Shown here: positions 24,801 to 57,140 of the stretch, piece after piece
How the letters are laid out: the number at the start of each line of letters is the position of its first letter
Numbering within the stretch: position 1 is the stretch's first letter
IMG/VR virus record: IMGVR_UViG_3300042453_003986
Span: 14,042-78,041 of that record
Length of the DNA stretch: 64,000 nt
Source: a virus
Reading direction: 5' to 3' (one strand)
Position numbers and translations under genes: made by a program
The notes under the pieces: model-generated
Databases searched by the model: none
What the model was told of the DNA's origin: nothing
The model's input: the letters and a program-made list of their open reading frames with translations, nothing else

Positions 24801-27800
24801 TCGAGGTGCTTCAGCAGCGGTGCCCGCAGTGTACTTGTCAGTCTGCAAAACGTCTGACTGTATCAGTCTAAGCGACTCTTTAATAAAGTCGCTGGTTTGT
24901 TGCTTAAGCTGTTGCTGAGCAGCAGCATCATCAAGCCCCGCGAATTGTCCTCGGCGTTCTTGAAAGTTGTTGCGCAAAACGCTGAGTTCGTTTTCTCGTG
25001 CGAGTAATGCAGGGTTTTTGCCGTAGTAGCCGCCACCGCCTCCTCCTCCAAAACCACCACCGCCAAAAACTGCTCCGGGAGCAGATTGAATATTTTGCCG
25101 CGCAACTGAACCAGCGTGGTAATTTTCTATTGTAAGTGGAGAACGGCTTTTAGATGAAACAGCTTCTTTAGTAAGAATTTGCTTAACTTCAATAGACCCC
25201 AACGATGCACCTGAATGTAAACTTAAGTTTACATTTGTTGCGTTAATTGTAGCTTTTTCAATAGAAGCAACTTCTAGATTTCTAGCGTCTAAATTAGTAA
25301 TTGTTACAGGGCCGCTAAACTCAGCACCGCCACTAATTGTTGCAGAGACTGCTCCGCCACCGCCACCACTTCCGCTTCCGCTGCTTCCAGAACCTACGGA
25401 CTCGGCACTCTCGTGTTTTTTACGCGATTCTTTTCCTGAAGCTCGAGGTTTACGTGTTCTTGTGGAAGTTATCTCTCCGGCCATTTCGGCCACAGCTTTA
25501 TCGTCTAAAGTGGACTCTACTACAGTTACAGAAGATTCAGGTGTATCGGAAACACTAGCTACGGAGGGCTCGCTTACAGCTAATTTTTCTTCTTCATACG
25601 CTTCTTTTTTAGTGGTGATAAGCTCAAGCGCAGAAACAGCTTCGCTTTTTTCTGCAAAAGCCGCCTCTTTTTCTGCAGTTGCTGCAGTTACCACGGTCTC
25701 CATTTCTTTAAGTGTTTGCTCAGCCTTGCGTAAATTATCTTCCCCGTGCGCAACCTTTGCATTGATGCTGATTAACCTGCTGGGGTATTTTGCATATCTC
25801 CTAGTCATCCAATCTTTTATTTTTTGCACTCTAGCCACGTAGGCACTTGCATCGTTGACCGCTTGTTCTTGACGTTTTAGTTCTTCACTACTTTGGGTTG
25901 CTTTTTCTTCAGCAATACCTATTAACTCATCTGCGCGAAGCACCCTTTCTGCAGCGGCTCCCCTTTCCCCAGTCAACGTTGCTTTTGTTATGTCTACTCC
26001 AGAAACTTCTGCTGGTTTTCGCTCAGTACTCGGTCGAGCAGTTATTGTGGGTGCTGTCGCATCTGTCAAAGCACTTGCTAGGACAGCGGCTCCTGCTGCT
26101 GCGGGTGTAGTAACCTTATCCATGTCGCCATGTGCGGAGAACGATCCCCAGCGAGACAGCAAGCTTCTAAGAGCCGCCGGGTCTAAGCTCATATCTGCCG
26201 CACCTACTAAACTGCGAAGGTATGAAAACGCTTCAGTTGTATAGCGAGAAGCTCCTACACCAGCCGGTCCTTTTCCGACGACGCTACCAGCTACAGAGTT
26301 AAACAAGTTGTATACAGTGTCTAAACTACCATCAACACGGTAAGGATCAAACATCGAGGTAACTTTAGCGGCCTCGTCTTGCATTCTTCTTAATTCTTCA
26401 GGGCTTATTTCTGTGTCAAGCGTATGGCCGAACATAGCAAGCACGCTTTTTATGTAGTTTTGATCGGTAATCGGCCGATTCTCGCTGTCAAATAGCTGTA
26501 ACTCACCTTTTCCGCTTATACTCGCAGTTTTTAGTGCGTCTAATCTACGCGCATGTGCTAGCATGTATGCTAAGTTTGCTGAGGTTTGTTTTACTTTATC
26601 TGTTGCATATCCTCTACGAGCGGTAACTAACGGCTGAAGTAATTTCTTTTGCTCATCAGTCAGCTGCGACTGAGCAAAAAATCTTTTTAACATGTTTTTA
26701 GAAAACTGGTCGGCGTTGCTTTTTTGCTCTTGCTGCGCTTTTACCAGCTCGTGATACAAACGCACATTTAAATCAGTGTCGTAAGCAGCTTCGTGAAGCC
26801 GGGTAGGATCATACTCTAATCCAAACAGTGTAGCTAAACTTCCCAATGTGCGTGATCCGGGCAGCTGTAGCTCATTAGCCATCTGCAGCGTATCTACTGC
26901 TTGATTTTGTACGATTGTCGGCACATTTTCAGCACCGCCGAATAAAATAGGTAAGTCAAACTCTTTAATGTTATGCCCAACAATTGTTTTACCGCTTTCC
27001 GCCGATCGTTGAAGGCGACTTCGAGCTTTCTGTATTTCTTTGGCACTAAGAGCAGGTCCTTCTTTTGACCCCATAGTAGACTGAACTTCAGTTGCAAAAG
27101 CACCAGTCGCTGTTTTACCTCCACCGACTGAAGCAAACTCGAGAATTTGTGCAGTTTCTCCGGGTTTCGGTATAGTAGTTTCTAGGTCAAACCCTACAAC
27201 GTCGATTACTGCTGCAATTCCCGCATCTATAGTATCTCGTCTTTCTTTACGTGCTGCATCTTCTCTGTCTCGCTGTTTTTTAATCACGTTATCTAGCTCA
27301 TCTTGCTTTTTTTTAGTTAACTCATCGTTTTTGTCTCGTCTTTCTTTACGTGCTGCATCTTCTCTGTCTCGCTGTTTTTTAATCACGTTATCTAGCTCAT
27401 CTTGCTTTTTTTTATCTAACTCATCTATATTATCTCGTCTTTCTTTACGTGCTGCGTCTGGCTCGTCTCGTCTTTCTTTACGTGCTGCATCTTCGCTGTC
27501 TCGTTGTTCTTTAAGCGCTGCGTCTTCTTTATCTCGTTGGCTTTTAATTGCCGCGTCTAGCTCATCTTGCTTTTTTTTATTTAACTCATCGTTTTTGTCT
27601 CGTCTTTCTTTAATTTCTGCGTCTGACTCGTCTTGCTGTTCTTCTGCGGCTAAGCGCGAAACTAAAGCGTCTCCCACTTGTTTTTGTATTTTTTGGGCTT
27701 GACTTACTGTGCGGTTCATCTCCTCCTTGGATGCCTGTGCTTTTTGATAGTCTTCCAGTGTTCCCCCGAAAAGGTGGACTTCTCCTACTATTTTTGATGC

Positions 27801-30800
27801 AGCATCGTATTGCTTGTCAAGCTGATCGAGCTCTGCTAGAGCGCTTTCTACTTCAGGCGGAATTTCTTCTCCTATATAAAACCTTTTTAGGTATTCTGCA
27901 AAGTAGTGTGGATTGGCCCATGTTGTTTGTATGTCTTCGCCCGAGGCCTGTACTTCTAGTGCTAGTGCTTTCATTTTACTTTTTTCTTTACGTGCTGCAT
28001 CTTCTCTGTCTCGATATTCTTTAAGTGCAGCTTTTCTTTCGTCTCGTTTTTCTTTACGTGCTGCGTCTTCTTCGTCGCGTCTTTCTTTAATTTCTGCATC
28101 TTCTTTATCTCGTTGGCTTTTAAGTGCTGGTTCTTCTTTATCTCGGTATTCTCTAAGTGCAGCTTCTCTTTCGTCTCGTCTTTCTTTACGTGCCGCGTCT
28201 TCTTCGTCGCGTCTTTTTTTAATTTCTGCATCTTCTCTATCTCGGTATTCTCTAATCGCTGCTTCTTTTCTGTCTCGTCTTTCTTTACGTGCTGCATCTT
28301 CTTCGTCTCGTCTTTTTTTAATTGCTTTATCTAGCTCGTCTTGCTTTTGTTTAGTTGCAGCAGTTCTGCCGCTTGTTGAGGCTGCAGAAGTGCCACTTCT
28401 TCTTTTATCAGCGGCAACTTCTGCCGCAGCTATTTGCACTGCGTCAGTAATTTGCGCTTCTTGCATTCCTTTACCAATTTCACTCGTAGCTAAAGCTAAG
28501 CCCGGGTTTGTTTCTTCCTGAAGTACTGCAATAGCTTCGTTAATAATTGCACGGTCCGCAGCGGGCAAACTTGCAATAGCCCGATCTAGAGCTCTGCCTG
28601 AAGTTCGCGGGTTCATTATCATAGCAAGCGCTTGGAAAGAAGCGGGATCAGTTAGTTCCGCAATTGAAGCAAGCAAGTTACGGATGCGCACATCTTTTGC
28701 AATCATTTCTGGTTTGTCACCAGTCAGGTTGTAGTCTTGCGGCAAACTTGCGTACAAAATCTTTAAAAAGTCAACAAGCGGTTCAGCACTAGGTTGATTG
28801 GTTACTAATTGATGAGCTTTGCGTATTTGTGCGTTTCGCTCGTACTTTCGGTATTGCGAATAGTCTGCCTGCTCTTGCATAGTAAGGCTATCGCCGCGAC
28901 TTTTCTTTGCTTGTAGCATTTGAAGTGCACGTCTGTTTTCAGCCTCGTCAAAATTCTCTGGTAAAGCGTAGTCGCTTTCTCTAGCTCTTTGGAGGTAAGA
29001 AGCAAGTGCCTGCGTAGTAAACTCACGGTCTGCTTCTGTAGGACCCACAGCTTCTTGCTCGGCCATGTCTTGCTTTAGCAACAACGTATCAAATAAAGCA
29101 TTCATTTTTTCATCGTCATAGTCAAGGTCAAAGCGCAGTTGCTGATAAAGAGGAGACGAAGTAATAAGACGAGTCAGCAGGCGTGCTGCTTGCGGACTGC
29201 TAGTTTCTTTCCTTTGCCTGTACAACCCTAACAACGAATCTTTAGGGTTAATGTTCAACTGTGAATAAAGATACTGCCTTCTTCTAAACAAGCTAGTGCG
29301 CAGTCTTTCTGCAGCTACGCGCGAAACTAACGCGTCTCCCGCTTGTCTAGGTATTTTTGCAGCTTGAGCTTTTAAGCTTTCAATCTGCTGGTCGATTGTT
29401 TTTAAAGCAGTGTTTACTACCTGTGGATCTTCTTGCTCCGCTTCTTTTTCTAGTTGCATTAAGTAGCTTATTTTAGCGTGATAGTCTGCATCTGCAGGAA
29501 CAGTGCCCGCACGAGCTGCTTCTCGCAAATCTGCTAACTCTCTTCTAATTTTTTCTAAACGAACAGGAGCAGCAGAAGCCGCTATGCTTTTTCTTTCCTG
29601 TAATTTAGCTTCAACCTGCTCTTGAAGCTGTGCTAACTCTGTTTGAGCGCTTTCTAGTTCAGGTGGAATTTCTTTTCCTGTAAAAGACTGACTTAATGCT
29701 GTCGCGATGTCTTTTGGTTCTGTACCCTCTACTCTCGCAACCCATTCGTTTGGTAGTTTATAGTAGTCAATGCCTACTACAGGGTAAGATACTGATCTTT
29801 TTGTATCATCCCTTTTTTCTTCTGCAAGTTTTTTGCTATGCTTGAGAAGCCCGGTGTAGTGTTGGCGTTGAATCTCACCCAGTGCGTACTGCCTTTCATG
29901 TTCTATCGACTTTGCGTTGATTTCGGCTTGTCCGAGCTCGAGCTTAAGTGGCTGAAGGTCCATAGAGACGTTAAACTTGTCGTAGTCTGTTTCTGTATCT
30001 TGGCCCTCTCTATTTTCTATAGCTGCTATCTGGGTTTTAAGACTTTGTATTTTTTCGTTAACTGGAGAAATTTCTTCATCTGCTGCTTTATTGACTTGAT
30101 CTTTTTTCTTTTTTGCTTGAGTTTCTATTTCGTTTATTTCGGTTTCATACGCGTTTATTTCAGCTTCTAGCTTTAGTATGTCTTCTTTAGCGGACTGGAC
30201 TTCCCAAGACGTGCTCGAGTCCTTAGGAAGCTCAGCAAGTTGTTTTTGAGCTGCTTTAGAAGCTTCTGCGGCACTGTACGACGTGTCACCAAACAATAAA
30301 GTGTCTAAATCAAACGCAGAGCGACGGTATGTTTGATCAGAAACCTCAACGCTACGTACCATTCGTGCAAGTGGCGTACCTTTAATAACTTCTTCAACAA
30401 AGTCGTCAACTGCGTAAGAATCACGCATTTCTGCTTGAGGATCAAAGCTAAGGGCTCCTTGTGCTTCAAATCCTTCTGAAGCTCGTCCGTAGAAAACCGA
30501 GCTTTCTTGTGCGTACTGAGCCGCGCGGATTCTTCGCTCTTTTTCCAACTCTAAAAACTTATCGTATTTACCTCGTTCTTCTTCAGTAAGCGTCTCTGCT
30601 CTTTTAAATATTTGCTCTGCCAGCTTCTCTTTTTCTTTACTGTCGGTTTCATAAAAAGCTCGATTATGTAATTGCTGCAGCTCTGCAGGTATGGCACTTT
30701 CCGCATCTTGGTATTCTATTTTTCGCCGCATGCGTGCGAGAAAATCGTCAGTACCGAAACCCTCGTCAAGACCTACATCAGAAAACCTGTATTTATTAAA

Positions 30801-33800
30801 GGCTTCTTCACGAATAGCCAGCTCAGTGCCTAGCTGAGCTCTTTGTTGACTAGATAAGTCATCTCTGCTTAACTGAGCGCGCAACCGCTCAATAGGTGCC
30901 ATTGGTCGTTCTTCGTCATCTATAGCAAGTTTTGTGCGCTTAATTTGGTCCTCAAGGTAGGTAATTGACGCTTGAGTAGCGCCGTTTACGCGCAACACGG
31001 CCAATTGATCTTGTAAGTTTCGCAGCTCGAGCAGTCGTTTTTGCTTTTGAGCTGTCCGGCGTTCAGGGAAAACACCTACTGCTTGCCGAAGCTGCTCACC
31101 AGCTGCCTGTGCGACTGGATACCGCTGCTGCGCCAGCTCTTCAATAGTTAATGGAGCTTGCTCTTGTTGTCTGCGGACTTCAGCTAATTGATCTTGTGTG
31201 CCAAGTATAGCTGCCATGAAGTCTAACGGAGATTCAGCCATCTCAGCCGCCGAAGCGCCGCTGGCTAAATACGTTAAACCTTGTACAAATGTATTATTTG
31301 GGTTGTTTAGTTCCTCTGCAGAGAGCATTTTATACGTTTTTGACAGCTGTAAAAACTCAGGTGCCACTGTGTCTGATTCTAATATTTTACGAGCTTCTTC
31401 AGGAGAACCTACGCCAAGCACACCGCTAGCATACTGCGTGTATGCTGCTTGCAGCATTGGGGAAATAGCCTGAAGAATACCGCGCATTCTTTCCACAGTA
31501 GAATCTTTTTTAGAAGCCGCCGCAAGACCCTCTCGTGCACGAGAACTGTTCAACACTTGTGCAATACCGGGTGCTACTTTAGCAATTTCTTCAAGTAAAA
31601 AAGGCACTTCTTTAGCAGGCACTGAAGACAGTGATTTCACGATACCTAGCAACGGCAAGTCTCGGCGGCCTACGTCGGTCATCGCATAAAAAAGTGTTTG
31701 CAGGTTATTTAAAGTCATCTGCGGATTTGTTGCGTAAGCTTCCCGAGCTCGCGTAACGTCAAAATTCCCGCTCTCGTCTAAATAAGCACTGGCAATTTGC
31801 GCGGCGGGTAGACTTCCTCCAGCAGAACCTCTCTGCACACCTAGTCCAAAGTAATCAGAAAAAAACTCTAGAGCGGCATACGGTTGGCCTCCAGCTGTGC
31901 GCTCTCGAGCACGCTCAAATCCTTCTATACCCAATCCTTTAATTTTTGCGATTGGGTCGGCTGTTCTCCCGTCCTCTGAGGTGTAACCCGCCAGTGCATT
32001 TTCAAGGTACACTGCGCTGCTTTGCGTTTCGTAAGGACGTTCTCTTCCCGCTAATCCTTGTTCTTGAAGATTTTGAAGCAGACCAGCTGCATAGTCTACA
32101 ATTTCTGGTGCTGCCGCAGGAAACGGAGTAAAAACGTGACTTCCATACAGTGTCGCTAAAGCAGTGTCGATGCTAATACCCTCTCCTGACTGCACTCCGG
32201 TGACAAGGTAAGCGCGCTCTTGTGGGCTGGTCTCGCTTGATGTTATTTTTCTTACAAAGGCTATTTGGTTTTTTACCTCTCGAGCACGATGGTTTAACAA
32301 CGCTCGAGATTCGCCGCTAGCTGCCTGTACAGCCTCTCTTTCAAGTTTTACACTCTGTCGTTCTAAATCCTCTAAAAGGCGCTGTATAAACAATTGAGCA
32401 GGAGTAATTTCAGTGTCCTTTGAAGATTCTCCAAAAAGCTGTGCAACAAATTCTTCTGGATCCGCACTTACATCTCCGTTTTGTACATAATTATTGATAA
32501 GTTCCGCTGCGTACAGGTTACTGACTTGCTGCACTCCTCCAGCGCCGCCAAACATGCTTGTAAACGACTTTCCAGTAATTCCACCACCGAGCACGCCCGA
32601 ATATGTAGAGGCTCTTTTTGTAGCTTGCACAGCTGGAGCAAACTGCTCTGCAAGAGCGCGAGGTAGCTGCACTGCTTTACCTCCAACGGAAACAGTTACT
32701 ACGTCTTTTTTCTCGATCTGCTCTTGTACTATTTTTCTTAACTGGGTAGTAGCAGCTTCTGCACTAAGAAGAAACTGAGTCGGAAAAACTGCACTACTTT
32801 GGAATCCAGTAATTTGAGAGCCTACTTTAGTGTCAATACCCTGTGCTTCTTGCCTGTATCGTCTACGCGGATTTAAGTTTTGAACAAACGATTCTATTGC
32901 CCTAAATGTGCTAGAAAATCGCTGAGTAATTGCAGAATTTACTTCGTCAGTATGGTCTGTATCGGTGGAGAGGTACACTGTTGCTCGTCCGTCGTCAGAC
33001 AAGATGTCCTCGAGTCCCACTTTTAACGTCTGCTCAACTTGGTTCACGCCTTGAGGAGGGAGAGTCCGTCCAGCTGCAGTCAATCGTTTAGTGTTTACGA
33101 CTGCTTGACGTAGGATTTTACGAAGCCGGTTTCCTACATTTTCTGTAAGCTTGACTACTGCACTGGCCGTTCCTCCAACTAGCTGTGGAGCTGTCATTCC
33201 CCCGCCCTCTAAAGCATAGCCGATTGAAGAAAGCATTGTCGAAGCTATTTGTTTTAACAGTGCAGAAATTTGCTCTTGTACATCTTTTTCGTCAGGCGCT
33301 TCTTTAAACGTTTCTTTAATCGCATTTTTAAGCACTGTTAAGTCTGCCGTTGCTACTGCTTTGTACAAGGAAGGCTGCTCTGCTTCAGGTACTGTAGTTA
33401 AGTAATCTTTCAACAATGCGGCAAACGTTTCATAGTCTTTAGAACTATTTCGCAAGCTTGGAGAAAACCCAAAAACGCGCCTAAACAAAGAGTTGTCTAT
33501 TGAAAAGTTGGAAGGACGTTCCGAATAAATAAGCGGGACTGGTCTTTCTGCGGGCGCATCAGTGCTTTCCGTTTCTTTATAAAACCGACTGCGTCTGCTT
33601 GACGGTGCTGTAGATTCGGTTGGTCGTTCGGTGATTCTACGCGTGTCGGTTACCTCGCTCATCGAAGAAGCAGCCGTTTTTAAATCTCGCGTTACAGCCT
33701 GCACCATACTTTGGATAGTTCTAAGAGTATCCGCACGATCAGCTGGTGTAATAGCGTTGTTTCGAACGTCGTCCACAAACTGCTCTAACGCAAAAACAGC

Positions 33801-33983
33801 GAGAGTTACACGCTCTTGAAAATCTGATCCCAAACGCGCTGTCGGGTTTACTCGCTTAGCCTCAGCACCAAAATCTGCAGAAACACCAGACAGTGCGCTT
33901 TTAGCTTCCTCTGAATTTTTTTCAACAGCCGTAAGCAAGTTTACGATTTGCGTTAATTGACTAATTGTTTCTTCCATAATCAC
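18858..33983 (-). CDS. Giant tape-measure-like protein (5041 aa) with DEDDh exonuclease and thermonuclease domains
   Basis: Follows major tail and chaperone genes; helical and Ala/Gln-rich; TMP-like motif AFDPAQGMEGASIAIKEFLSGN..SLSRRF; embedded nuclease motifs. Confidence 0.85.
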   Translation of the reverse strand: MIMEETISQLTQIVNLLTAVEKNSEEAKSALSGVSADFGAEAKRVNPTARLGSDFQERVTLAVFALEQFVDDVRNNAITPADRADTLRTIQSMVQAVTRDLKTAASSMSEVTDTRRITERPTESTAPSSRRSRFYKETESTDAPAERPVPLIYSERPSNFSIDNSLFRRVFGFSPSLRNSSKDYETFAALLKDYLTTVPEAEQPSLYKAVATADLTVLKNAIKETFKEAPDEKDVQEQISALLKQIASTMLSSIGYALEGGGMTAPQLVGGTASAVVKLTENVGNRLRKILRQAVVNTKRLTAAGRTLPPQGVNQVEQTLKVGLEDILSDDGRATVYLSTDTDHTDEVNSAITQRFSSTFRAIESFVQNLNPRRRYRQEAQGIDTKVGSQITGFQSSAVFPTQFLLSAEAATTQLRKIVQEQIEKKDVVTVSVGGKAVQLPRALAEQFAPAVQATKRASTYSGVLGGGITGKSFTSMFGGAGGVQQVSNLYAAELINNYVQNGDVSADPEEFVAQLFGESSKDTEITPAQLFIQRLLEDLERQSVKLEREAVQAASGESRALLNHRAREVKNQIAFVRKITSSETSPQERAYLVTGVQSGEGISIDTALATLYGSHVFTPFPAAAPEIVDYAAGLLQNLQEQGLAGRERPYETQSSAVYLENALAGYTSEDGRTADPIAKIKGLGIEGFERARERTAGGQPYAALEFFSDYFGLGVQRGSAGGSLPAAQIASAYLDESGNFDVTRAREAYATNPQMTLNNLQTLFYAMTDVGRRDLPLLGIVKSLSSVPAKEVPFLLEEIAKVAPGIAQVLNSSRAREGLAAASKKDSTVERMRGILQAISPMLQAAYTQYASGVLGVGSPEEARKILESDTVAPEFLQLSKTYKMLSAEELNNPNNTFVQGLTYLASGASAAEMAESPLDFMAAILGTQDQLAEVRRQQEQAPLTIEELAQQRYPVAQAAGEQLRQAVGVFPERRTAQKQKRLLELRNLQDQLAVLRVNGATQASITYLEDQIKRTKLAIDDEERPMAPIERLRAQLSRDDLSSQQRAQLGTELAIREEAFNKYRFSDVGLDEGFGTDDFLARMRRKIEYQDAESAIPAELQQLHNRAFYETDSKEKEKLAEQIFKRAETLTEEERGKYDKFLELEKERRIRAAQYAQESSVFYGRASEGFEAQGALSFDPQAEMRDSYAVDDFVEEVIKGTPLARMVRSVEVSDQTYRRSAFDLDTLLFGDTSYSAAEASKAAQKQLAELPKDSSTSWEVQSAKEDILKLEAEINAYETEINEIETQAKKKKDQVNKAADEEISPVNEKIQSLKTQIAAIENREGQDTETDYDKFNVSMDLQPLKLELGQAEINAKSIEHERQYALGEIQRQHYTGLLKHSKKLAEEKRDDTKRSVSYPVVGIDYYKLPNEWVARVEGTEPKDIATALSQSFTGKEIPPELESAQTELAQLQEQVEAKLQERKSIAASAAPVRLEKIRRELADLREAARAGTVPADADYHAKISYLMQLEKEAEQEDPQVVNTALKTIDQQIESLKAQAAKIPRQAGDALVSRVAAERLRTSLFRRRQYLYSQLNINPKDSLLGLYRQRKETSSPQAARLLTRLITSSPLYQQLRFDLDYDDEKMNALFDTLLLKQDMAEQEAVGPTEADREFTTQALASYLQRARESDYALPENFDEAENRRALQMLQAKKSRGDSLTMQEQADYSQYRKYERNAQIRKAHQLVTNQPSAEPLVDFLKILYASLPQDYNLTGDKPEMIAKDVRIRNLLASIAELTDPASFQALAMIMNPRTSGRALDRAIASLPAADRAIINEAIAVLQEETNPGLALATSEIGKGMQEAQITDAVQIAAAEVAADKRRSGTSAASTSGRTAATKQKQDELDKAIKKRRDEEDAARKERRDRKEAAIREYRDREDAEIKKRRDEEDAARKERRDEREAALREYRDKEEPALKSQRDKEDAEIKERRDEEDAARKEKRDERKAALKEYRDREDAARKEKSKMKALALEVQASGEDIQTTWANPHYFAEYLKRFYIGEEIPPEVESALAELDQLDKQYDAASKIVGEVHLFGGTLEDYQKAQASKEEMNRTVSQAQKIQKQVGDALVSRLAAEEQQDESDAEIKERRDKNDELNKKKQDELDAAIKSQRDKEDAALKEQRDSEDAARKERRDEPDAARKERRDNIDELDKKKQDELDNVIKKQRDREDAARKERRDKNDELTKKKQDELDNVIKKQRDREDAARKERRDTIDAGIAAVIDVVGFDLETTIPKPGETAQILEFASVGGGKTATGAFATEVQSTMGSKEGPALSAKEIQKARSRLQRSAESGKTIVGHNIKEFDLPILFGGAENVPTIVQNQAVDTLQMANELQLPGSRTLGSLATLFGLEYDPTRLHEAAYDTDLNVRLYHELVKAQQEQKSNADQFSKNMLKRFFAQSQLTDEQKKLLQPLVTARRGYATDKVKQTSANLAYMLAHARRLDALKTASISGKGELQLFDSENRPITDQNYIKSVLAMFGHTLDTEISPEELRRMQDEAAKVTSMFDPYRVDGSLDTVYNLFNSVAGSVVGKGPAGVGASRYTTEAFSYLRSLVGAADMSLDPAALRSLLSRWGSFSAHGDMDKVTTPAAAGAAVLASALTDATAPTITARPSTERKPAEVSGVDITKATLTGERGAAAERVLRADELIGIAEEKATQSSEELKRQEQAVNDASAYVARVQKIKDWMTRRYAKYPSRLISINAKVAHGEDNLRKAEQTLKEMETVVTAATAEKEAAFAEKSEAVSALELITTKKEAYEEEKLAVSEPSVASVSDTPESSVTVVESTLDDKAVAEMAGEITSTRTRKPRASGKESRKKHESAESVGSGSSGSGSGGGGGAVSATISGGAEFSGPVTITNLDARNLEVASIEKATINATNVNLSLHSGASLGSIEVKQILTKEAVSSKSRSPLTIENYHAGSVARQNIQSAPGAVFGGGGFGGGGGGGYYGKNPALLARENELSVLRNNFQERRGQFAGLDDAAAQQQLKQQTSDFIKESLRLIQSDVLQTDKYTAGTAAEAPRVALKSAIDEMIDPANEAAVAANFGSRLEAIAGLVKQYVDTLDTSTLPEDVAKAAKSEIDGLNRTVQSAREQGYYTLTAVSKDQTSIDNAARNKAREDEAAAREAARVDEADKRKRDIVANESRKNAMLTAKGVLGSARTAFDLAGGELNGQTFAVGRAELIKTTVDALRDTTELDALSTVVSGLASAEPDNVREFTAALNQLNQAADDANLTEAATAFAKLTKVAADLQERVTASTTLTDAEKQSAMSALTLFTSRASQTDYIKPTAGVIEATERKRMSVLEEQLQAAAGRPGFFGLRRDSTQRRLLKEYAQERFGQAGADIMYNDRSMRFQARTENGGRIDLIEASAEDLKRLQEDLGNAGAPIGLEELQKLQNVMSRTQQTRNQTPFADPLFFAASRIRDIQTLGMTAMSALSLPSTIAGIIDQAASPALNAVRSMTSLRGLSRDQGVFNKAVAAASEQQALFGGSLTSNIGNITSFIPLTNAYGVDISQVVNVARKLAAFDPAQGMEGASIAIKEFLSGNVASLSRRFEINRSALSKIDIGNATEMLDKLDEVLAQMGVTDQLINEAANSRAAQYDKMLGRLETMGIKVSEFAVGVATPLLESILGPSSVLGEMADTSTINLMRDEGLKFTGSKALSKLADVDMYAPDLSTFTRQVDKVLQEANDEIALAAASYQKTTGVTPLVSPYRLLENMKPEERVQFRNMAQANRLFKGMTTEQALMQASRDMGGDYASYQEFVNQRKLLPTNRMSYEQMIKSDRFTELKADAEKAMIDEVARGAGGAFRPGILTALASPSTFLVGSLIASGVESASRSGASLKRATIGKVTDLDTFRTTSGERVRLVGIDAPETGSKAAIKAMSKAVEVGLRENENITYEAGGFDKYGRTLAVVYNEQGQMINSELIARGIAGAMTDNQAVNSFASFVADQGIGVVNEAAAKAGLGGLPVISDEVKRAYYMQTYFGGIGGTAGSVGTAVGGGMLTNATIGALAGSKMFAGSAAASAAAGAGIVGTAGLAALGAGVAAGGYALITRAIDLNDVSVEKMRQLYKMQTEFEKNQRMQNKFDSVYLANAGFSGNRETLINNELKKTRGRFIPNTKISEALAASGLTQAAYDEASTAIEKLYNQQDEQGKSILGTVVLSPDGTEMVSLTEALTQSLAFAQDANLRDTAVGKESQRLIGVGNELIDNADIIQLAQKYGLGITPSELGLNNNQLEALGLLESPAVLGRDYREAAQAAQGVSTQLTATQMARFLTSEQIKTYSDAMRQRLLNDPTYQVQAKEYMDQQFDQELQRKQQRFNTFAEQTALNNAMGLFGSAGPLSASQVMNSQFMRTSFADEGAKSALNDAVEESIKTFNAVSKHNKSMAELMGPYVSTFQTTFANYVAGFSRAGSAANTLRDYMSNGDPLFALNEMRRISGLDWRSMISQQMFLPQASSSAQLAQIPYYEMRRAFQPIDPRVARGADRLAGMQLPYTSGPRGRLAYANMIASNASITSLMNPAELMNVYSMGIQAQTELAQRNFQHNTQMRDLAINHNRSLEDITRNAFRQLEGIHLNATRQMVQAVQQRELSKRQSLAQNYSQLGSANMAESDRRKIDQVAQAGKKFADQAEQSNPAAFLRFQGRYSSESTALLEKAFTAYDRLPITDLAGRDAAWAQVIKYRDQVVSEMTELMKTADPETRANLQAQAALLGRDPERGAQAQQFADQQVATMIQRAESEKALRLRREDLLRQQRYSGLEYQGLVQNMQAAQQSGDPLQIQQAARALSDFNIQQQRLSEEIQQINRELQNMIDVAPLWSDFWTQGYVNIEETTSTTMSGLINQYEDFNIGLKQQIEDALINLARQKDDLVRSFTDAATEIATQVPATMAKGVAAIMQYTNDMTAVEGLISRGRFDEANNLASAANNRLALSLYGSTETPEAKTLKAQLSVNAREVPTAFDAYSVDTPEGKALRVYTVSTTSPAKPPKDRPFPMPSGQGILQ
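27230..28350 (-). repeat. 33-nt (11-aa) tandem charged repeats inside the giant protein
   Basis: Units such as DEEDAARKERR, DREDAEIKKRR and DERKAALKEYR; recurring nucleotide string tctcgtctttctttacgtgctgc. Confidence 0.9.
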
Positions 33984-52894: not shown

Positions 52895-52980
52895 GCCGGG
52901 TTGGCGGAATGGCAGACGCGACTGTTTTAGGGGCAGTTGGGCTTACGCTCATGCGGGTTCGACTCCCGCACCCGGCACCA
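52895..52980 (+). tRNA. tRNA-Leu (anticodon TAG)
   Basis: Acceptor GCCGGGT/ACCCGGC-A-CCA; D arm GCGGAATGGCAGACGC; anticodon arm ACTGT-TTTAGGG-GCAGT; long variable arm; T arm GCGGG-TTCGACT-CCCGC. Confidence 0.92.
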
Positions 52981-54319: not shown

Positions 54320-54498
54320 AGATTGCAAACTGTCTTTGCCGTCAATGCCGCCTTAGCAGCCGCCGACGTCAGACGTATCTGAACCAACGGCGTGCAGCAC
54401 GCCGCAATGTCAAAGAGCGAATCCGCTACGAGACCCATCGCAAAGCGTACAACGAGATCGACCCTCCCAAAACGTACCGCGGGAAATATGCCGCTTGA
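54316..54498 (+). CDS. Small basic Cys-containing protein
   Basis: ATGA coupling; CLCRQCR; Arg-rich. Confidence 0.5.
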   Translation: MKIANCLCRQCRLSSRRRQTYLNQRRAARRNVKERIRYETHRKAYNEIDPPKTYRGKYAA

Positions 54499-54524
54499 CA
54501 ACTACTTAGTGGTTTAGGTACAAT
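54495..54524 (+). promoter_or_regulatory. Sigma70-type promoter
   Basis: TTGACA-18-TACAAT. Confidence 0.65.
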
Positions 54525-54583
54525 AGGAACAAAGCCTGCGTGAACTATCCTAGGCTATGGGCACGCAGGCTTTGTATAATTAC

Positions 54584-54645
54584 GGGGCGGTATATCAGTG
54601 GTAGAGAATTAGTGCGCGGGGTTCGATTCCCCGCCCGCCCCACCA
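54584..54645 (+). ncRNA. tRNA-like RNA lacking the anticodon arm
   Basis: GGGGCGG/CCGCCCC-A-CCA acceptor, D-loop AGTGGTA, T arm GCGGGG-TTCGATT-CCCCGC; only about 8 nt between D and T arms. Confidence 0.75.
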
Positions 54646-54773
54646 TTTTCGTGAGGTCACGAAATAGATACGAGGAGACAACTTCGTCAGGCGACTTGAT
54701 GAAGAGTTGTCAAAAGATACTCACTAGTGTGTTTTCATTTATACACGCCAGACCGGTGTGTAAAGGAGAAGAG

Positions 54774-55121
54774 ATGAACATTGTAAACTTGACGCCGCAC
54801 ACGATCAGCATTGTGCGGAAGGACGGGGAAACCATTCAAGTTGCTCCGACGGCTCCGGCCGCGCGTGTCCAGCAGCAGAACGTAGTGGTCGACGAGGTTT
54901 TTGGGATCGCAGTTAGCGCGGTGCAATACGGCGAGGTGGAAAACCTTCCCCCTCCTCAAGAGGGCACGATTTACGTCGTGAGTGCAGTGGTAGCACAGCA
55001 ATGCACCCTTCGTTCGGATGTGTATGCTCCTGATACAGGGCCGTCAGCGATTCGCAACGAAGCAGGGCAGATCACTGCGGTTCGTGGATTAGTAAGCACT
55101 GCGTGGGCCGCCCGATTCTAG
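54774..55121 (+). CDS. NLTPH-motif protein (possible Crn4-like ring nuclease)
   Basis: MNIVNLTPH...AR...LP.P..G.IYVVS..VA...R.D..AP...R...G.I..V..L; AAAGGAG RBS. Confidence 0.5.
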   Translation: MNIVNLTPHTISIVRKDGETIQVAPTAPAARVQQQNVVVDEVFGIAVSAVQYGEVENLPPPQEGTIYVVSAVVAQQCTLRSDVYAPDTGPSAIRNEAGQITAVRGLVSTAWAARF

Positions 55122-55133
55122 AGCAAATTCGAT

Positions 55134-55162
55134 TTGCATTCTATTTTGGGTTGTGATATACT
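55134..55162 (+). promoter_or_regulatory. Sigma70-type promoter
   Basis: TTGCAT-17-TATACT with a TGn extension. Confidence 0.65.
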
Positions 55163-55173
55163 ACGTATCAATA

Positions 55174-55223
55174 GGGATGGTTGCAGCACTTCTACTGCTC
55201 TATCAATGCAACAAAACCATCCC
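55174..55223 (+). ncRNA. Small structured RNA 1 upstream of the DUF2828 gene
   Basis: GGGATGG/CCATCCC terminal stem, TTGCA/TGCAA upper stem, loop GCAC...TCAA. Confidence 0.6.
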
Positions 55224-55233
55224 GCATAACAAT

Positions 55234-55292
55234 GGAGTGGGTGCAGCACACAACTTCAACCTTGTCAATGCACGACCAGTCAAACCCACTCC
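55234..55292 (+). ncRNA. Small structured RNA 2 (paralogue of RNA 1)
   Basis: GGAGTGG/CCACTCC terminal stem, GTGCA/TGCAC upper stem, loop GCAC...TCAA; compensatory changes relative to RNA 1. Confidence 0.6.
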
Positions 55293-55352
55293 GAGTATCT
55301 TATCTTCTGTGCACGGGATCCCTCGTGCACTTTCGATGCAAAGGAGTCTCGT

Positions 55353-56810
55353 ATGCTGAAAGCACTCGTACAGAATGAGACGGTCACCAACAACGGCATG
55401 GCGGCCTACCGCTCAACAAACTCGGCCTGTTTAGACCTGTTCTACAAGATCGGGGCAAGCCGCGGGAAGGACATCACTCAGCCGTTTTTTGCTGCCTATC
55501 AGGAAAACCGCGAATTAGCTCTTCGCATTGCCCTTTGGGCACGAGACGCACGTGGAGGTGCGGGCGAACGCCAAGTGTTTCGCGACATCTTGGTTATGCT
55601 CGAAGAGCTTGACCCAATGCTGGTGCGGCTCTTAATCCCACGCATTCCTGAGCTTGGCCGCTGGGATGACCTGCTGGTGTTCAAGACCAACTGGGTGAAA
55701 TCTGCTGTCTACAGCTTTATTGCCGTAGCCCTTGAAGCAGGGGATCGCCTCTGTGCCAAGTGGATGCCGCGAAAAGGCCCTGTCGCAGCGGAACTGCGGC
55801 GCGTATTGGGGAAGTCTCCTCGCGAGTACCGCAAGTACTTGGTAGAGCGCACCCATGTCGTAGAGTCGCAGATGTGCGCCCGTCAATGGGACCGCATCGT
55901 GTTCGACACCGTACCCAGCTTGGCTAGCGCCCGGTACCGCAAGGCGTTTTGGCGGAACGCCGAAGAGGCATACCGCACGTACGTTGAGGGCTTGGCCAAC
56001 AAGACCCGCAAGGTACATGGCAACTTGTTTCCTCACGACGTGGTTCGCTCAGTGCTCTTCTCAGAAGCCACTGATCCTGCGTTTCGCGCACTTGAGGAGC
56101 AGATGATCGAAGCGCAGTGGGCCGCTTTGCCGACCTACTTGCAAGATGCTCGTATTCTTCCGTTAGTCGACGTCAGCGGGTCGATGACCTCGCCGATTTC
56201 GGGGAAGCTGCGGGCGATGGACGTGGCCATTTCTTTGGGTTTGTACTGCGCAAGCAAAAACACTGGCCCATTCAGTGACTTGGTCATGACTTTTTCAGAG
56301 GTACCGACGCTGCTGTCTCTGGAAGGATCGGTCGTCGAAAAAGTGCGTCAGCTGGAGAGCGCTCCTTGGGGTATGAACACCAACTTTGCTGCCGCCTTGC
56401 AAGAGCTGCTGAGCCTTGCCCAGCGAGAGTCTGTGCCCCAGTCAGAGATGCCGGAAGTACTGTTGGTGTTGTCCGACATGCAGTTCGACTCGGTGGAGTC
56501 ATACCGCAGCAAGAAGACAACTGCTCTTGCAGAGGTACGTGAGAAATACGTGCTTCACGGGTACACGCCGCCCACGATCGTGTTCTGGAACCTCAAAGAT
56601 GAGGACAACGTACCGGCCACCCTGCGGCACGACAACACGGTCTTGGTAAGCGGCTACTCACCCGCGTTGCTCAAGAGCCTCTTGGCCACGTTACAGGCGG
56701 TTCGCGGACAGGACGCGCACGCTCGTACACAAGCGCTGCAGAACCTCTCGCAGGCCATGATGTACCTTACGGTAGACGTCCCACGGTACGATCCTCCGGT
56801 ATCCGTCTAG
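55353..56810 (+). CDS. DUF2828-family TROVE-like + vWA domain protein
   Basis: T.NG..ST.SACLDLF, ARD.RGG.GER, GRWDDL, AKW.PR, MIDAS DVSGSM, WGMNTNF, SDMQFD, IVFWNL, VSGYSP. Confidence 0.85.
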   Translation: MLKALVQNETVTNNGMAAYRSTNSACLDLFYKIGASRGKDITQPFFAAYQENRELALRIALWARDARGGAGERQVFRDILVMLEELDPMLVRLLIPRIPELGRWDDLLVFKTNWVKSAVYSFIAVALEAGDRLCAKWMPRKGPVAAELRRVLGKSPREYRKYLVERTHVVESQMCARQWDRIVFDTVPSLASARYRKAFWRNAEEAYRTYVEGLANKTRKVHGNLFPHDVVRSVLFSEATDPAFRALEEQMIEAQWAALPTYLQDARILPLVDVSGSMTSPISGKLRAMDVAISLGLYCASKNTGPFSDLVMTFSEVPTLLSLEGSVVEKVRQLESAPWGMNTNFAAALQELLSLAQRESVPQSEMPEVLLVLSDMQFDSVESYRSKKTTALAEVREKYVLHGYTPPTIVFWNLKDEDNVPATLRHDNTVLVSGYSPALLKSLLATLQAVRGQDAHARTQALQNLSQAMMYLTVDVPRYDPPVSV

Positions 56811-56870
56811 TCGACTAGCGCAACGGCCTCAGATTGGCCACCAGCCGCGATCTGCGGCACTTCTCCCTCT

Positions 56871-56902
56871 CCCCCTTACTCAGAGTAAGGGGGTGCTTTT
56901 TT
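56871..56902 (+). terminator. Intrinsic terminator
   Basis: CCCCCTTACT/AGTAAGGGGG hairpin then TGCTTTTTT. Confidence 0.75.
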
Positions 56903-57140
56903 GTGCCCGCAAAACGGCGCTGGTGATGGCCACGACCGAACGAGGGGCTGACAGGAGCAGGGGCCAAAACGGGTCGGTGGGTTTTTAAAATTTGTGAGGG
57001 TCACAGGGGAAATAGGGGGGAGACTTGTGACTACTTTGTGACTACCATGCACAGTAGTCAACGGTCAGACTAACAGTTAGTACTGACTGCTTGTGACTTG
57101 CAAATGTCAAGTCACCGACGTCCGCAGAAAGGACAGTACC

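What the first reader, a model, noticed from the sequence alone, without database searches (positions are those of the whole stretch)
55134..56810. TROVE/Ro60-like DUF2828 gene preceded by two covarying Y-RNA-like hairpins under their own promoter
Seen: a promoter, then two 50-59 nt units whose 5' and 3' ends pair (GGGATGG/CCATCCC vs GGAGTGG/CCACTCC). Each has an upper stem (TTGCA/TGCAA vs GTGCA/TGCAC), a 3' A-rich bulge and conserved loop edges GCAC...TCAA. Both stems show compensatory changes. A third hairpin (55309-55330) precedes the RBS. Established: Ro60/Rsr is a TROVE+vWA ring that binds end-paired Y RNAs encoded next to its gene and acts in RNA decay and repair. Inference: DUF2828 has a similar helical+vWA layout, so this could be an uncharacterised phage ribonucleoprotein with cognate small RNAs. 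The hairpins could instead be autoregulatory binding sites.
Basis: partly seen in the sequence, partly recalled or inferred. Interest (0 to 1): 0.85.

Follow-up and report, generated by a model that had tools for sequence, protein, structure and literature searches.

The report
Phage Ro60-like protein with partner RNAs
A 78-kb phage carries a small operon in which two short folded RNAs sit just ahead of a gene for a ring-shaped protein built like the RNA-surveillance protein Ro60; the same RNA-protein pairing recurs in many unrelated phages, so the RNAs are most likely the protein's partners.

Summary
A sigma-70-type promoter (55133-55162) is followed by two end-paired RNA units (55174-55223, 55233-55293), a third hairpin, an RBS, a 485-aa DUF2828/DUF7788 gene and a terminator.

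The AlphaFold model of the protein matches Ro60 structures over its full length (Xenopus Ro60 Z 17.7; Thermus phage phiRo60 Z 16.1). Sequence searches do not reach Ro60.

Both units are divergent, minimal members of a conserved RNA "handle" family: a covarying closing stem, then CAGCA(A/C) 11 nt from the stem base, and an A-rich 3' strand. A covariance model trained without this window finds only these two sites in the 64 kb. In relatives, all 109 hits lie on the gene's strand. Five phages that lack the gene have none. Relatives' units often carry YrlA/tRNA-like inserts; these two do not.

Binding and processing are inferred, not shown. Phage Ro60/Y-RNA particles are already published. I found this handle family neither in Rfam 15 nor in the papers I searched.

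This scan has reported the same pairing many times on other DNA. This window is therefore a new, compact member, not a first sighting.

The parts
55133..55162 (+). Sigma-70-type promoter (TTTGCA / TG-n-TATACT); predicted start near 55169, about 5 nt before unit 1
   Evidence: 9 of 12 matches, TG before the -10 hexamer; sequence. No other promoter is predicted between here and the gene.
55174..55223 (+). RNA unit 1 (50 nt): 9-bp closing stem GGGATGGTT/AACCATCCC, CAGCAC at 55184-55189, 24-nt interior, A-rich 3' strand
   Evidence: -17.3 kcal/mol, z -4.4. R1 gives 30.4 bits. R2, trained without the window, gives 26.5 bits, E 2.2e-4.
55233..55293 (+). RNA unit 2 (61 nt): 10-bp closing stem TGGAGTGGGT/ACCCACTCCG with an outer U-G pair, CAGCAC at 55244-55249, 33-nt interior
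   Evidence: -19.1 kcal/mol. R1 gives 28.4 bits. R2 gives 19.9 bits, E 0.011.
55309..55330 (+). Third hairpin (9 bp, loop AUCC) between the RNA units and the RBS. It is not a canonical terminator, because only three U follow it. Possible processing site or 5' stabiliser of the mRNA.
   Evidence: -15.1 kcal/mol, z -4.9. Not called as a terminator. No counterpart seen in relatives.
55341..55346 (+). Ribosome-binding site AAGGAG, 6 nt before the ATG
   Evidence: Sequence.
55353..56810 (+). Gene for a 485-aa Ro60-fold protein (DUF2828 helical repeats + DUF7788/vWA with a MIDAS motif DxSGS at D273-S277)
56871..56903 (+). Intrinsic terminator (10-bp stem, 6 G-C pairs, then a T-run) that closes the operon

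Best explanation
This is a compact phage operon, about 1.75 kb, for a Ro60-like ribonucleoprotein.

- One promoter drives a transcript that carries two small RNAs, then a hairpin, then the mRNA of a ring-shaped Ro60-fold protein. The protein has DUF2828 helical repeats closed by a vWA/MIDAS domain.
- Each RNA consists of a 'handle' and a variable interior. The handle is the paired 5' and 3' ends, an unpaired CAGCA(A/C) placed 11 nt from the stem base, and an A-rich 3' strand.
- I infer that the protein recognises the handle, as Ro60 recognises the stem of Y RNAs.
- I infer that the units are cut out of the leader as discrete RNAs of about 50-60 nt. Hairpin 3 would then be left at the new mRNA 5' end.
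- I infer that the interior is a 'cargo' that presents something to other factors. In relatives it is an anticodon-arm-like hairpin or a YrlA-type tRNA-like domain. Here it is only a short irregular hairpin.
- By analogy with Rsr-Y RNA-PNPase and phiRo60-Yrl-PNPase, the particle probably gates or redirects a host RNA enzyme. Because the gene sits in or beside phage tRNA arrays, that role is probably tied to tRNA metabolism.

What is shown: the anatomy, the fold, the RNA family, its covariation, and its co-occurrence with the gene on the same strand. What is inferred: binding, processing and the downstream function.
For: **Protein**
- Full-length structural match to Ro60 only.
- The MIDAS motif is invariant in 50 homologues.
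- PHROG 850 'RNA-binding protein', E 1e-123.

**RNA family**
- 8-bp closing stem: 94.9% of cells paired in 98 units, 208 compensatory cells, 0 of 500 shuffles as good; slid controls 26-45%.
- An apical 5-bp hairpin that I did not select for also covaries.
- The model trained without the window hits only units 1 and 2 in 64 kb. The whole 78-kb genome has only these two.

**Linkage to the gene**
- 109 of 109 hits in 324 kb of relatives' loci lie on the gene's strand.
- 57 of 64 loci have units within 520 nt upstream.
- In whole genomes of Alf5, P100, Rose5 and RSP15, all 12 hits lie within about 5 kb of the gene on its strand.
- T4, T5, Bxz1, SPO1 and phiKZ (860 kb) have neither the RNA nor the protein.
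- Units lie downstream of the gene in Alf5, Rose5 and RSP15. They therefore cannot be only 5'-UTR elements.

**Link to Y RNAs**
- Relatives' units give sub-threshold matches to YrlA (RF02553): 37.6 bits over the full model in L078.

**Precedent**
- phiRo60 binds two upstream Yrl RNAs and host PNPase (PMC12135203).
- YrlA genes lie within 4 kb of Ro60 genes on the same strand (PMC4201824).

**Strain variants**
- Variants from other metagenomes change the leader at five places. None is in a closing stem or in CAGCA (small sample).
Against: - There is no direct evidence of binding, of discrete small RNAs, or of expression in this phage.
- The window's units are divergent. They have CAGCAC rather than CAGCAA, a 1-nt linker, and no UGUU tail. 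Unit 2 scores only 19.9 bits (E 0.011) with the independent model.
- The handle is not the canonical Ro60-binding helix. The protein is not a sequence member of TROVE: no Pfam TROVE hit, and a profile search against PDB gives E 0.26 at best.
- The units used for the first covariation count were picked by requiring a stem, so the pairing percentage is partly circular. The strand bias, location, register and independent-model tests are not circular.
- No terminator or second promoter separates the units from the gene. They are first of all part of the mRNA leader.
- The co-occurrence control is small: 5 genomes against 5.
Confidence: 0.7

Rival explanations
1. The two hairpins are only cis-acting operator sites in the mRNA leader. 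The Ro60-like protein, or another factor, binds them to repress or stabilise its own message, and no free small RNAs are made.
For: - The units lie between the only predicted promoter and the gene, with no terminator between them.
- In 43 of 64 relatives the last handle ends 10-29 nt before the start codon, so the Shine-Dalgarno sequence abuts the 3' arm. This is a classic layout for translational autoregulation.
Against: - In Alf5, Rose5 and RSP15 the same units lie downstream of the gene or up to about 5 kb away among tRNA genes. 14 of 64 loci have units after the gene.
- Units come in arrays of one to four, with elaborate tRNA-like cargos that an operator does not need.
- In this window the last unit ends 59 nt before the ATG, with another hairpin in between.
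- This role is compatible with the main explanation as a second function.
Confidence: 0.15
2. The handle RNAs work independently of the DUF2828 protein, for example as processing punctuation or decoys of phage tRNA operons. They sit next to the gene only because both reside in the tRNA region.
For: In 7 of 8 cultured phages examined, the gene lies in or beside a tRNA array. Many units carry tRNA parts.
Against: - Here the units abut the gene, and the only tRNA gene called by ARAGORN is 2.2 kb away.
- Rose5 has no tRNA nearby, yet three units directly follow the gene.
- Five tRNA-bearing phages without the gene have no hit.
Confidence: 0.1
3. Chance hairpins or a local duplication without function.
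For: The two units are only 50-61 nt long. Unit 2's fold is only moderately better than shuffles (z -2.3).
Against: - The independent covariance model finds exactly these two sites in 64 kb.
- The stems differ by compensatory changes.
- The family is conserved across phages of different host phyla.
Confidence: 0.02

Closest known systems
Bacterial and mycobacteriophage Ro60 (Rsr) with YrlA/YrlB Y RNAs (Chen et al. 2014, PMC4201824; Rfam RF02553)
   Same: - A ring protein of helical repeats closed by a vWA domain.
- Partner RNAs encoded within a few kb on the same strand.
- RNA ends paired into a stem.
- In relatives of this phage, a tRNA-like domain (T arm, D arm) inside the RNA, giving sub-threshold RF02553 hits.
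   Different: - The protein is not detectable as TROVE by sequence.
- The conserved RNA element is a different handle: a UAGG-type stem plus CAGCA(A/C).
- The window's own units have no tRNA-like domain and no RF02553 match.
- Bxz1, a mycobacteriophage of the group reported to carry Ro60 orthologues (my recollection; its Ro gene was not checked here), has no handle hit.
phiRo60 with Yrl1/Yrl2 of Thermus phage phiLo (PMC12135203; PDB 9kop, 9l5y)
   Same: - A phage-encoded Ro60-fold protein with two small stem-bulge RNAs encoded just upstream of its gene.
- It is the best Foldseek hit of the model (E 1e-10; Z 16.1).
- Binding of the RNAs and of host PNPase was shown there.
   Different: - About 15-18% sequence identity.
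- The Yrl RNAs were defined by a CGAA motif, not by CAGCA.
- phiRo60 is annotated as a TROVE-domain protein.
- Nothing has been measured for the protein in this window.
Listeria phage CKA15 gene 055 and nearby abundant non-coding transcripts (PMC12282133)
   Same: - CKA15_055 most likely belongs to the same family. P100 gp165 is a homologue (32% identity), and its 5' end and upstream region match CKA15 at 95.6%.
- The authors saw Rsr by HHpred and proposed that nearby abundant RNAs are Y RNAs.
- The protein was found in purified virions.
   Different: - The authors did not define an RNA motif.
- By my mapping, the three handle units of P100 (L084 3613-3879) correspond to CKA15 positions of about 25,287-25,553. 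That is not the 26,236-26,727 region the paper names.
- The paper does not give the positions of the other two abundant regions.
Class I RNAs of dictyostelid social amoebae (PMC7919456)
   Same: As that paper describes them:
- About 60 nt long, often in clusters.
- A short covarying stem joins the 5' and 3' ends.
- An unpaired 11-nt motif sits next to the 5' arm, with conserved T3, C6, C9, A10 and A11.
- They start with AAG and end with CUGU, whose C pairs with the 5' G.
- The rest is variable.

The phage consensus UAGG...uuCAGCAA...CCUGUU fits this description closely.
   Different: - They are eukaryotic genes with their own DUSE promoter, and were reported as unique to Dictyostelia.
- The known binder is an RRM protein (Rnp1A).
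- I compared against the paper's text only, with no sequences.
- The window's units match fewer of the conserved positions: unit 1 four of five, unit 2 three of five, and neither has the CUGU end.

Membership tests
Ro60 / TROVE-vWA proteins | Ring of alpha-helical (HEAT-like) repeats closed by a C-terminal vWA domain | tested here: met
   AF2 model with pLDDT 87.3. Full-length matches to 1yvp (Z 17.7, 411 aligned), 9l5y (Z 16.1) and 2nvo (Z 12.9), above all vWA-only hits. The top 13 Foldseek hits are all Ro60.
Ro60 / TROVE-vWA proteins | Sequence membership in the TROVE domain family (Pfam PF05731) | tested here: not met
   Pfam scan at E 0.01 or better gives DUF7788, DUF2828, VWA_2 and VWA_CoxE, and no TROVE. 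phmmer against PDB finds no Ro60. A profile of 50 homologues reaches phiRo60 only at E 0.26, over 35 residues of the vWA domain.
Ro60 / TROVE-vWA proteins | MIDAS motif (DxSxS) in the vWA domain | tested here: met
   D273, S275, G276 and S277 are invariant in 50 homologues.
Ro60 / TROVE-vWA proteins | Binds Y RNA stems and single-stranded ends of misfolded RNAs | not testable with these tools
   Needs EMSA, RIP or a structure.
Y RNAs of the YrlA type (Rfam RF02553) | 5' and 3' ends pair into a stem; encoded within about 4 kb of the Ro60 gene on the same strand | tested here: met
   The units end 59-129 nt before the gene on its strand.
Y RNAs of the YrlA type (Rfam RF02553) | Match to the family covariance model, including the tRNA-like T and D arms | tested here: not met
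   No RF02553 hit in the leader even at E 10 on a 181-nt search. Units of relatives give sub-threshold hits of 25.8-37.6 bits against a gathering score of 69.
CAGCA-handle RNAs beside DUF2828 genes (defined here by models R1/R2; I found no published family) | Match to a covariance model trained without the window's sequences | tested here: met
   R2 gives 26.5 bits (E 2.2e-4) for unit 1 and 19.9 bits (E 0.011) for unit 2. These are the only hits in 64 kb.
CAGCA-handle RNAs beside DUF2828 genes (defined here by models R1/R2; I found no published family) | Closing stem with near-invariant G-C (pair 3) and U-A (pair 6); C(A/C)GCA beginning 11 nt after the stem base | tested here: met
   Alignment A2, rows 1-2. 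Pair statistics.
CAGCA-handle RNAs beside DUF2828 genes (defined here by models R1/R2; I found no published family) | Consensus details: 2-3 nt U-rich linker, CAGCAA, and a 3' ...CUGUU tail | tested here: not met
   The window has a 1-nt linker G, CAGCAC, and tails ...CCCGCA and ...TCCGAG. It is a divergent member.
Dictyostelid Class I RNAs | About 60 nt, a terminal 6-bp stem, an 11-nt motif (T3 C6 C9 A10 A11) beside the 5' arm, and a CUGU end | tested here: inconclusive
   Compared only with the description in PMC7919456. Length and stem fit. The motif fits at 4 of 5 positions (unit 1) and 3 of 5 (unit 2). The CUGU end is absent. No sequence-level test was possible.
Dictyostelid Class I RNAs | Gene in a dictyostelid genome behind a DUSE promoter element | tested here: not met
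   This is a phage genome with a sigma-70-type promoter.

The most novel reading that the evidence does not exclude
DUF2828-type proteins and CAGCA-handle RNAs would form a second, ancient branch of the Ro60/Y-RNA particle, shared by thousands of phages and by eukaryotes. The unexplained Class I RNAs of social amoebae would be its eukaryotic RNA partners. That would name a candidate protein partner and function for Class I RNAs. It would also give phage biology a new RNA-guided tool that acts on tRNAs or host RNases. The amoeba link rests on a published description and on earlier scan notes.
Probability: 0.15. Interest if true: 0.85.

Novelty: new variant of a known kind. Interest (0 to 1): 0.55.

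Why it matters
Ro60/Y-RNA particles are known from animals, some bacteria and a few phages, and their partner RNAs have been hard to find.

- The protein family is large. It has 8,377 clusters at 50% identity and occurs in 710 of 50,697 phage records, including Felix O1-type, P100/A511-type and KVP40-type phages.
- It turns out to have the Ro60 fold and its own partner-RNA family, which is recognisable by a simple handle.
- This window offers about the smallest natural version: one promoter, two minimal RNAs without tRNA-like cargo, one protein and one terminator, in 1.75 kb. That is a convenient construct for testing binding, processing and structure.
- If the particle acts on tRNAs or on host RNases such as PNPase, it bears on how phages protect their translation supply against host defences.

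Tried and rejected
- **Rfam 15 on the leader.** Run at E 10 or better, both on 3 kb and on 181 nt. Nothing relevant turned up: no Y_RNA, no YrlA, no Class I-like family. A consensus unit of RSP15 also matched no handle-like family.
- **Nucleotide search.** blastn of 54500-57000 against 50,697 phage records gave no match.
- **Literal motif search.** The family became visible only through a stem-plus-C[AC]GCA search.
- **Background of the first regex.** The loose regex search had a high background: 445 hits on the gene strand, 299 on the reverse strand, 165 in shuffled sequence. I used it only to seed alignments. Conclusions rest on the covariance models.
- **Sequence searches against PDB.** phmmer and a profile search gave no significant Ro60 hit.
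Not supported as a conserved feature (alignment).
- **Hairpin 3 as a terminator.** Rejected: only three U follow it, and one search does not call it.
- **Expression.** No RNA holder is listed among public runs for this stretch, so nothing can be said about expression.
- **Strain-level contigs.** Coverage of the leader was limited. Parts without cover are not interpreted.
- **Mapping to the CKA15 RNA-seq peak.** The P100 handle array does not correspond to the 26,236-26,727 peak that the paper names. That paper therefore gives no direct expression evidence for handle RNAs.
- **KVP40, Citrobacter Ci1 and Bacillus Thrax4.** They gave no R1 hit at E 1 or better. The regex search found five handle-like units in Thrax4 and one unit around a pseudo-tRNA in Ci1.
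- **Campylobacter phage QDYZ.** It was hit by R1 but not by R2 at E 0.01 or better.
Full report
**Setting.**
The window is bases 14042-78041 of a complete 78,041-bp IMG/VR phage genome with direct terminal repeats. It encodes a DNA polymerase, a ribonucleotide reductase, a portal-like protein, tail-fibre-like proteins and one 5,041-aa ORF. No nucleotide-level relative exists among 50,697 deposited phage genomes. Near-identical DNA occurs in lake and estuary metagenomes.

**Anatomy.**
- After the stop of the upstream gene (55121) comes a promoter, TTTGCA-18-TATACT with a TG extended -10 (55133-55162).
- About 5 nt after the predicted start lies unit 1 (55174-55223). It has a 9-bp closing stem GGGATGGTT/AACCATCCC, one G, CAGCAC (55184-55189), a 24-nt interior and an A-rich 3' strand.
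- Ten nt later lies unit 2 (55233-55293). It has a 10-bp stem TGGAGTGGGT/ACCCACTCCG with an outer U-G pair, one G, CAGCAC (55244-55249) and a 33-nt interior.
- The two stems differ at three positions, each compensated on the partner strand.
- Hairpin 3 follows at 55309-55330 (-15.1 kcal/mol, z -4.9). It is not a canonical terminator.
- Then come the RBS AAGGAG (55341-55346), the 485-aa ORF (55353-56810) and a strong intrinsic terminator (56871-56893).
- The 198-nt leader stretch 55155-55352 folds far better than shuffles (z -4.3).
- No promoter or terminator is predicted between the units and the gene. All parts therefore belong to one primary transcript.

**The protein.**
- Pfam gives DUF7788 (vWA-like, E 7e-45) and DUF2828 (E 9e-26), but not TROVE.
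- PHROGs gives family 850, 'RNA-binding protein' (E 1e-123).
- Sequence searches against PDB do not reach Ro60. The profile search gives E 0.26 to phiRo60 over 35 vWA residues.
- An AlphaFold2 model built from 50 homologues is confident (pLDDT 87.3, pTM 0.85).
- By Foldseek its 13 best PDB matches are all Ro60: phiRo60 of Thermus phage phiLo at E 1e-10, Xenopus and human Ro60 at about 1e-8, and Deinococcus Rsr at 4e-7. Only vWA domains follow.
- The Foldseek-independent search agrees: 1yvp_A Z 17.7 (411 residues aligned), 9l5y_B Z 16.1, 2nvo_A Z 12.9, then vWA-only hits at Z 10 or less.
- The MIDAS motif DxSGS is invariant.
- The protein therefore has the Ro60 architecture but is a separate sequence family.
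- The family is large: 8,377 clusters at 50% identity. It occurs in 710 cultured-phage records, including Felix O1-type coliphages, KVP40, Listeria P100/A511, and Campylobacter, Staphylococcus, Enterococcus and Bacillus phages.
- Some mycobacteriophage records already call it 'Ro-like RNA binding protein'.

**The RNA family.**
- I fetched 80 IMG/VR loci with homologues of 45-52% identity.
- Their upstream regions show the same architecture again and again. The 5' part reads (uu)U[A/G]G[G/A][A/U]U-NNN-(u)u(u/a)-C[A/C]GCA[A/C]. A variable interior of 10-220 nt follows. Then comes an A-rich strand, and the 3' part reads NNN-A[U/A][C/U]C[U/C]G-uu.
- In an alignment of 52 short units (A2) the 8-bp closing stem is 94.5% paired. 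It has 111 compensatory cells; 0 of 500 shuffles reach this, and slid controls give 28-47%.
- These units had been picked by requiring a stem, so that figure is partly circular. The following tests are not.
  - A 5-bp apical hairpin that I did not select for also covaries (71% paired, all five pairs with double changes). It often has a 7-nt loop of the form CU-NNN-AA, like an anticodon loop.
  - Model R1 finds 109 hits at E 0.01 or better in 324 kb of relatives' loci searched on both strands. All 109 are on the gene's strand, including many far from the training region and some downstream of the gene.
  - Model R2 was rebuilt from 98 hits that exclude the window (stem statistics). It finds exactly two sites in the 64-kb window, unit 1 (26.5 bits, E 2.2e-4) and unit 2 (19.9 bits, E 0.011). 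The whole 78-kb genome holds no others.
In Campylobacter QDYZ there are two directly upstream. In Listeria P100 there are three within 340 nt upstream. In E. coli Alf5 there are several within 1.5 kb downstream, among tRNA genes. In mycobacteriophage Rose5 there are three directly downstream. In Ralstonia RSP15 there are six within about 5 kb.
  - Five phages without the gene have no hit at E 0.1 or better in 860 kb: T4, T5, SPO1, phiKZ and Bxz1. From memory all five carry tRNA genes, and Bxz1 belongs to the mycobacteriophage group reported to carry Ro60 orthologues; I checked neither point here.
- Of 64 non-redundant loci, 57 have one to four units within 520 nt upstream.

**Relation to Y RNAs.**
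- Several relatives' units enclose a permuted tRNA-like domain. They give sub-threshold matches to Rfam YrlA (RF02553): L078 37.6 bits over the whole model, then L006, L009, L062 and RSP15.
- The family thus overlaps in cargo with bacterial Y RNAs (PMC4201824), but its handle is different.
- The window's two units are the minimal form. They have no T arm or D arm and no RF02553 match. They deviate from the consensus in having CAGCAC, a 1-nt linker and no UGUU tail.
It overlaps the CAGCA motif and competes with pairs 8-9 of the family-wide stem.

**Mechanism.**
- Shown: the anatomy, the Ro60 fold, the RNA family with covariation, and its strand-specific co-location and co-occurrence with the gene.
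- Inferred: the protein binds the handle; the units are cut from the leader into RNAs of about 50-60 nt; and the interior serves as a displayed cargo.
- The inference rests on precedents. Ro60/Rsr binds end-paired Y RNAs encoded beside its gene (PMC4201824). phiRo60 binds two upstream Yrl RNAs and, with them, host PNPase (PMC12135203).
- The gene sits in or next to tRNA arrays in 7 of 8 cultured phages examined. That points to a role in tRNA metabolism or its defence, but this is the weakest step.
In 43 of 64 relatives the last handle ends 10-29 nt before the start codon. Units downstream of the gene or kilobases away argue against a purely cis role.
- Strain variants from other metagenomes change the leader at 55149, 55192, 55255 and 55303, and insert CA after 55246. 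None of these touches a closing stem or CAGCA. The sample is small.

**What is known already.**
- Phage Ro60 homologues with Y-like RNAs are published: mycobacteriophages in 2014, Thermus phage phiLo in 2025, and a brief mention for jumbo phages in PMC7824862.
- For Listeria phage CKA15 the authors noted an HHpred match of gene 055 to Rsr, found the protein in virions, and guessed that nearby abundant RNAs are Y RNAs (PMC12282133). P100 gp165 is a homologue of this window's protein, and its upstream region matches CKA15 at 95.6%, so CKA15_055 is most likely of the same family.
- I found no description of the CAGCA handle in Rfam 15 or in the searched literature.
- The description of dictyostelid Class I RNAs fits the phage consensus strikingly well (PMC7919456). 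Those RNAs are about 60 nt and have a covarying terminal stem. They carry an unpaired 11-nt motif next to the 5' arm with conserved T3, C6, C9, A10 and A11. They start with AAG and end with CUGU.
- That lead came from earlier notes of this scan. I checked it only against the paper's text.

**Earlier findings of this scan.**
The same protein-RNA pairing has been reported many times on other DNA: 1,733 notes hold the search words. A later check of one such report upheld what was seen but gave its bold reading low odds. This window is therefore another member. It is compact, divergent and free of tRNA-like cargo, but it is not a first discovery.

**Verdict.**
Relative to published knowledge this is a new variant of a known kind: a Ro60/Y-RNA-type particle with a sequence-divergent protein branch and an undescribed RNA handle. 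I put the RNA-protein partnership at about 0.7. The downstream function is open.

Noticed in passing
window 54495-54664 (+): A near-consensus promoter (TTGACA-18-TACAAT, 54495-54524) is followed by a perfect 14-bp hairpin (54529-54575). After it comes a 62-nt tRNA-like minihelix (54584-54645): a 7-bp acceptor stem GGGGCGG/CCGCCCC, a D-loop-like AGUGGUAGA, a T arm CGGGGUUCGAUUCCCCG and a 3' ACCA, with no anticodon arm. ARAGORN does not call it. Rfam gives only sub-threshold tmRNA-end and mascRNA-like hits. It may be a free-standing tRNA mimic related to the cargo that relatives place inside their handles.
   Followed up: partly
window 54540-55121 (+): The mechanical 193-aa ORF probably starts at ATG 54774, which is preceded by AAGGAG. 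That gives 115 aa. The PHROG matches (30542, 21731; unknown function) cover only this part, and the first 234 nt are the structured RNA region noted above.
   Followed up: partly
window 52895-52980 (+): The only tRNA gene that ARAGORN calls in the window is a tRNA-Leu (anticodon UAG), 2.2 kb upstream of the operon. In cultured phages the DUF2828-type gene usually lies inside or beside a large tRNA array.
   Followed up: partly
L002 1328-1544 (IMGVR_UViG_3300047160_000980): A viral contig with a homologue of the gene has, about 1 kb upstream of it, a sub-threshold match to bacterial RNase P RNA class A. The match scores 67.2 bits against a gathering score of 100, at E 2e-18. It spans the whole 367-position model within only 217 nt. 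It could be a miniaturised phage RNase P-like RNA.
   Followed up: no
L082 5923-6123 (Citrobacter phage Ci1, OR515478.1 77137-77337): The feature annotated 'tRNA-Pseudo-AAC' (L082 5991-6104) lies inside a handle-like unit: TTTCTCTA-CAGCAAA...TAGAGAGG. It is probably a handle RNA with tRNA-like cargo, mis-called as a pseudo-tRNA.
   Followed up: no
window 18858-33983 (-): A single open reading frame of 5,041 aa, very large for a 78-kb phage. I did not examine it.
   Followed up: no
Listeria phage CKA15 (PMC12282133) and records of phages CBB and 7t3: CKA15_055, probably the CKA15 member of this Ro60-like family, was detected in purified virions (57% sequence coverage). In two jumbo-phage records the homologue is annotated 'structural protein'. 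The protein may therefore be packaged and delivered with the DNA.
   Followed up: no
Homologue loci L003-L081, just before the start codons: In 43 of 64 relatives the 3' arm of the last handle (…AACCUG) is followed directly by the Shine-Dalgarno sequence (…AAAGGA…). The spacing to the start codon is tight, 10-29 nt. That suggests translational coupling or autoregulation. This window lacks the arrangement: 59 nt, with an extra hairpin.
   Followed up: partly
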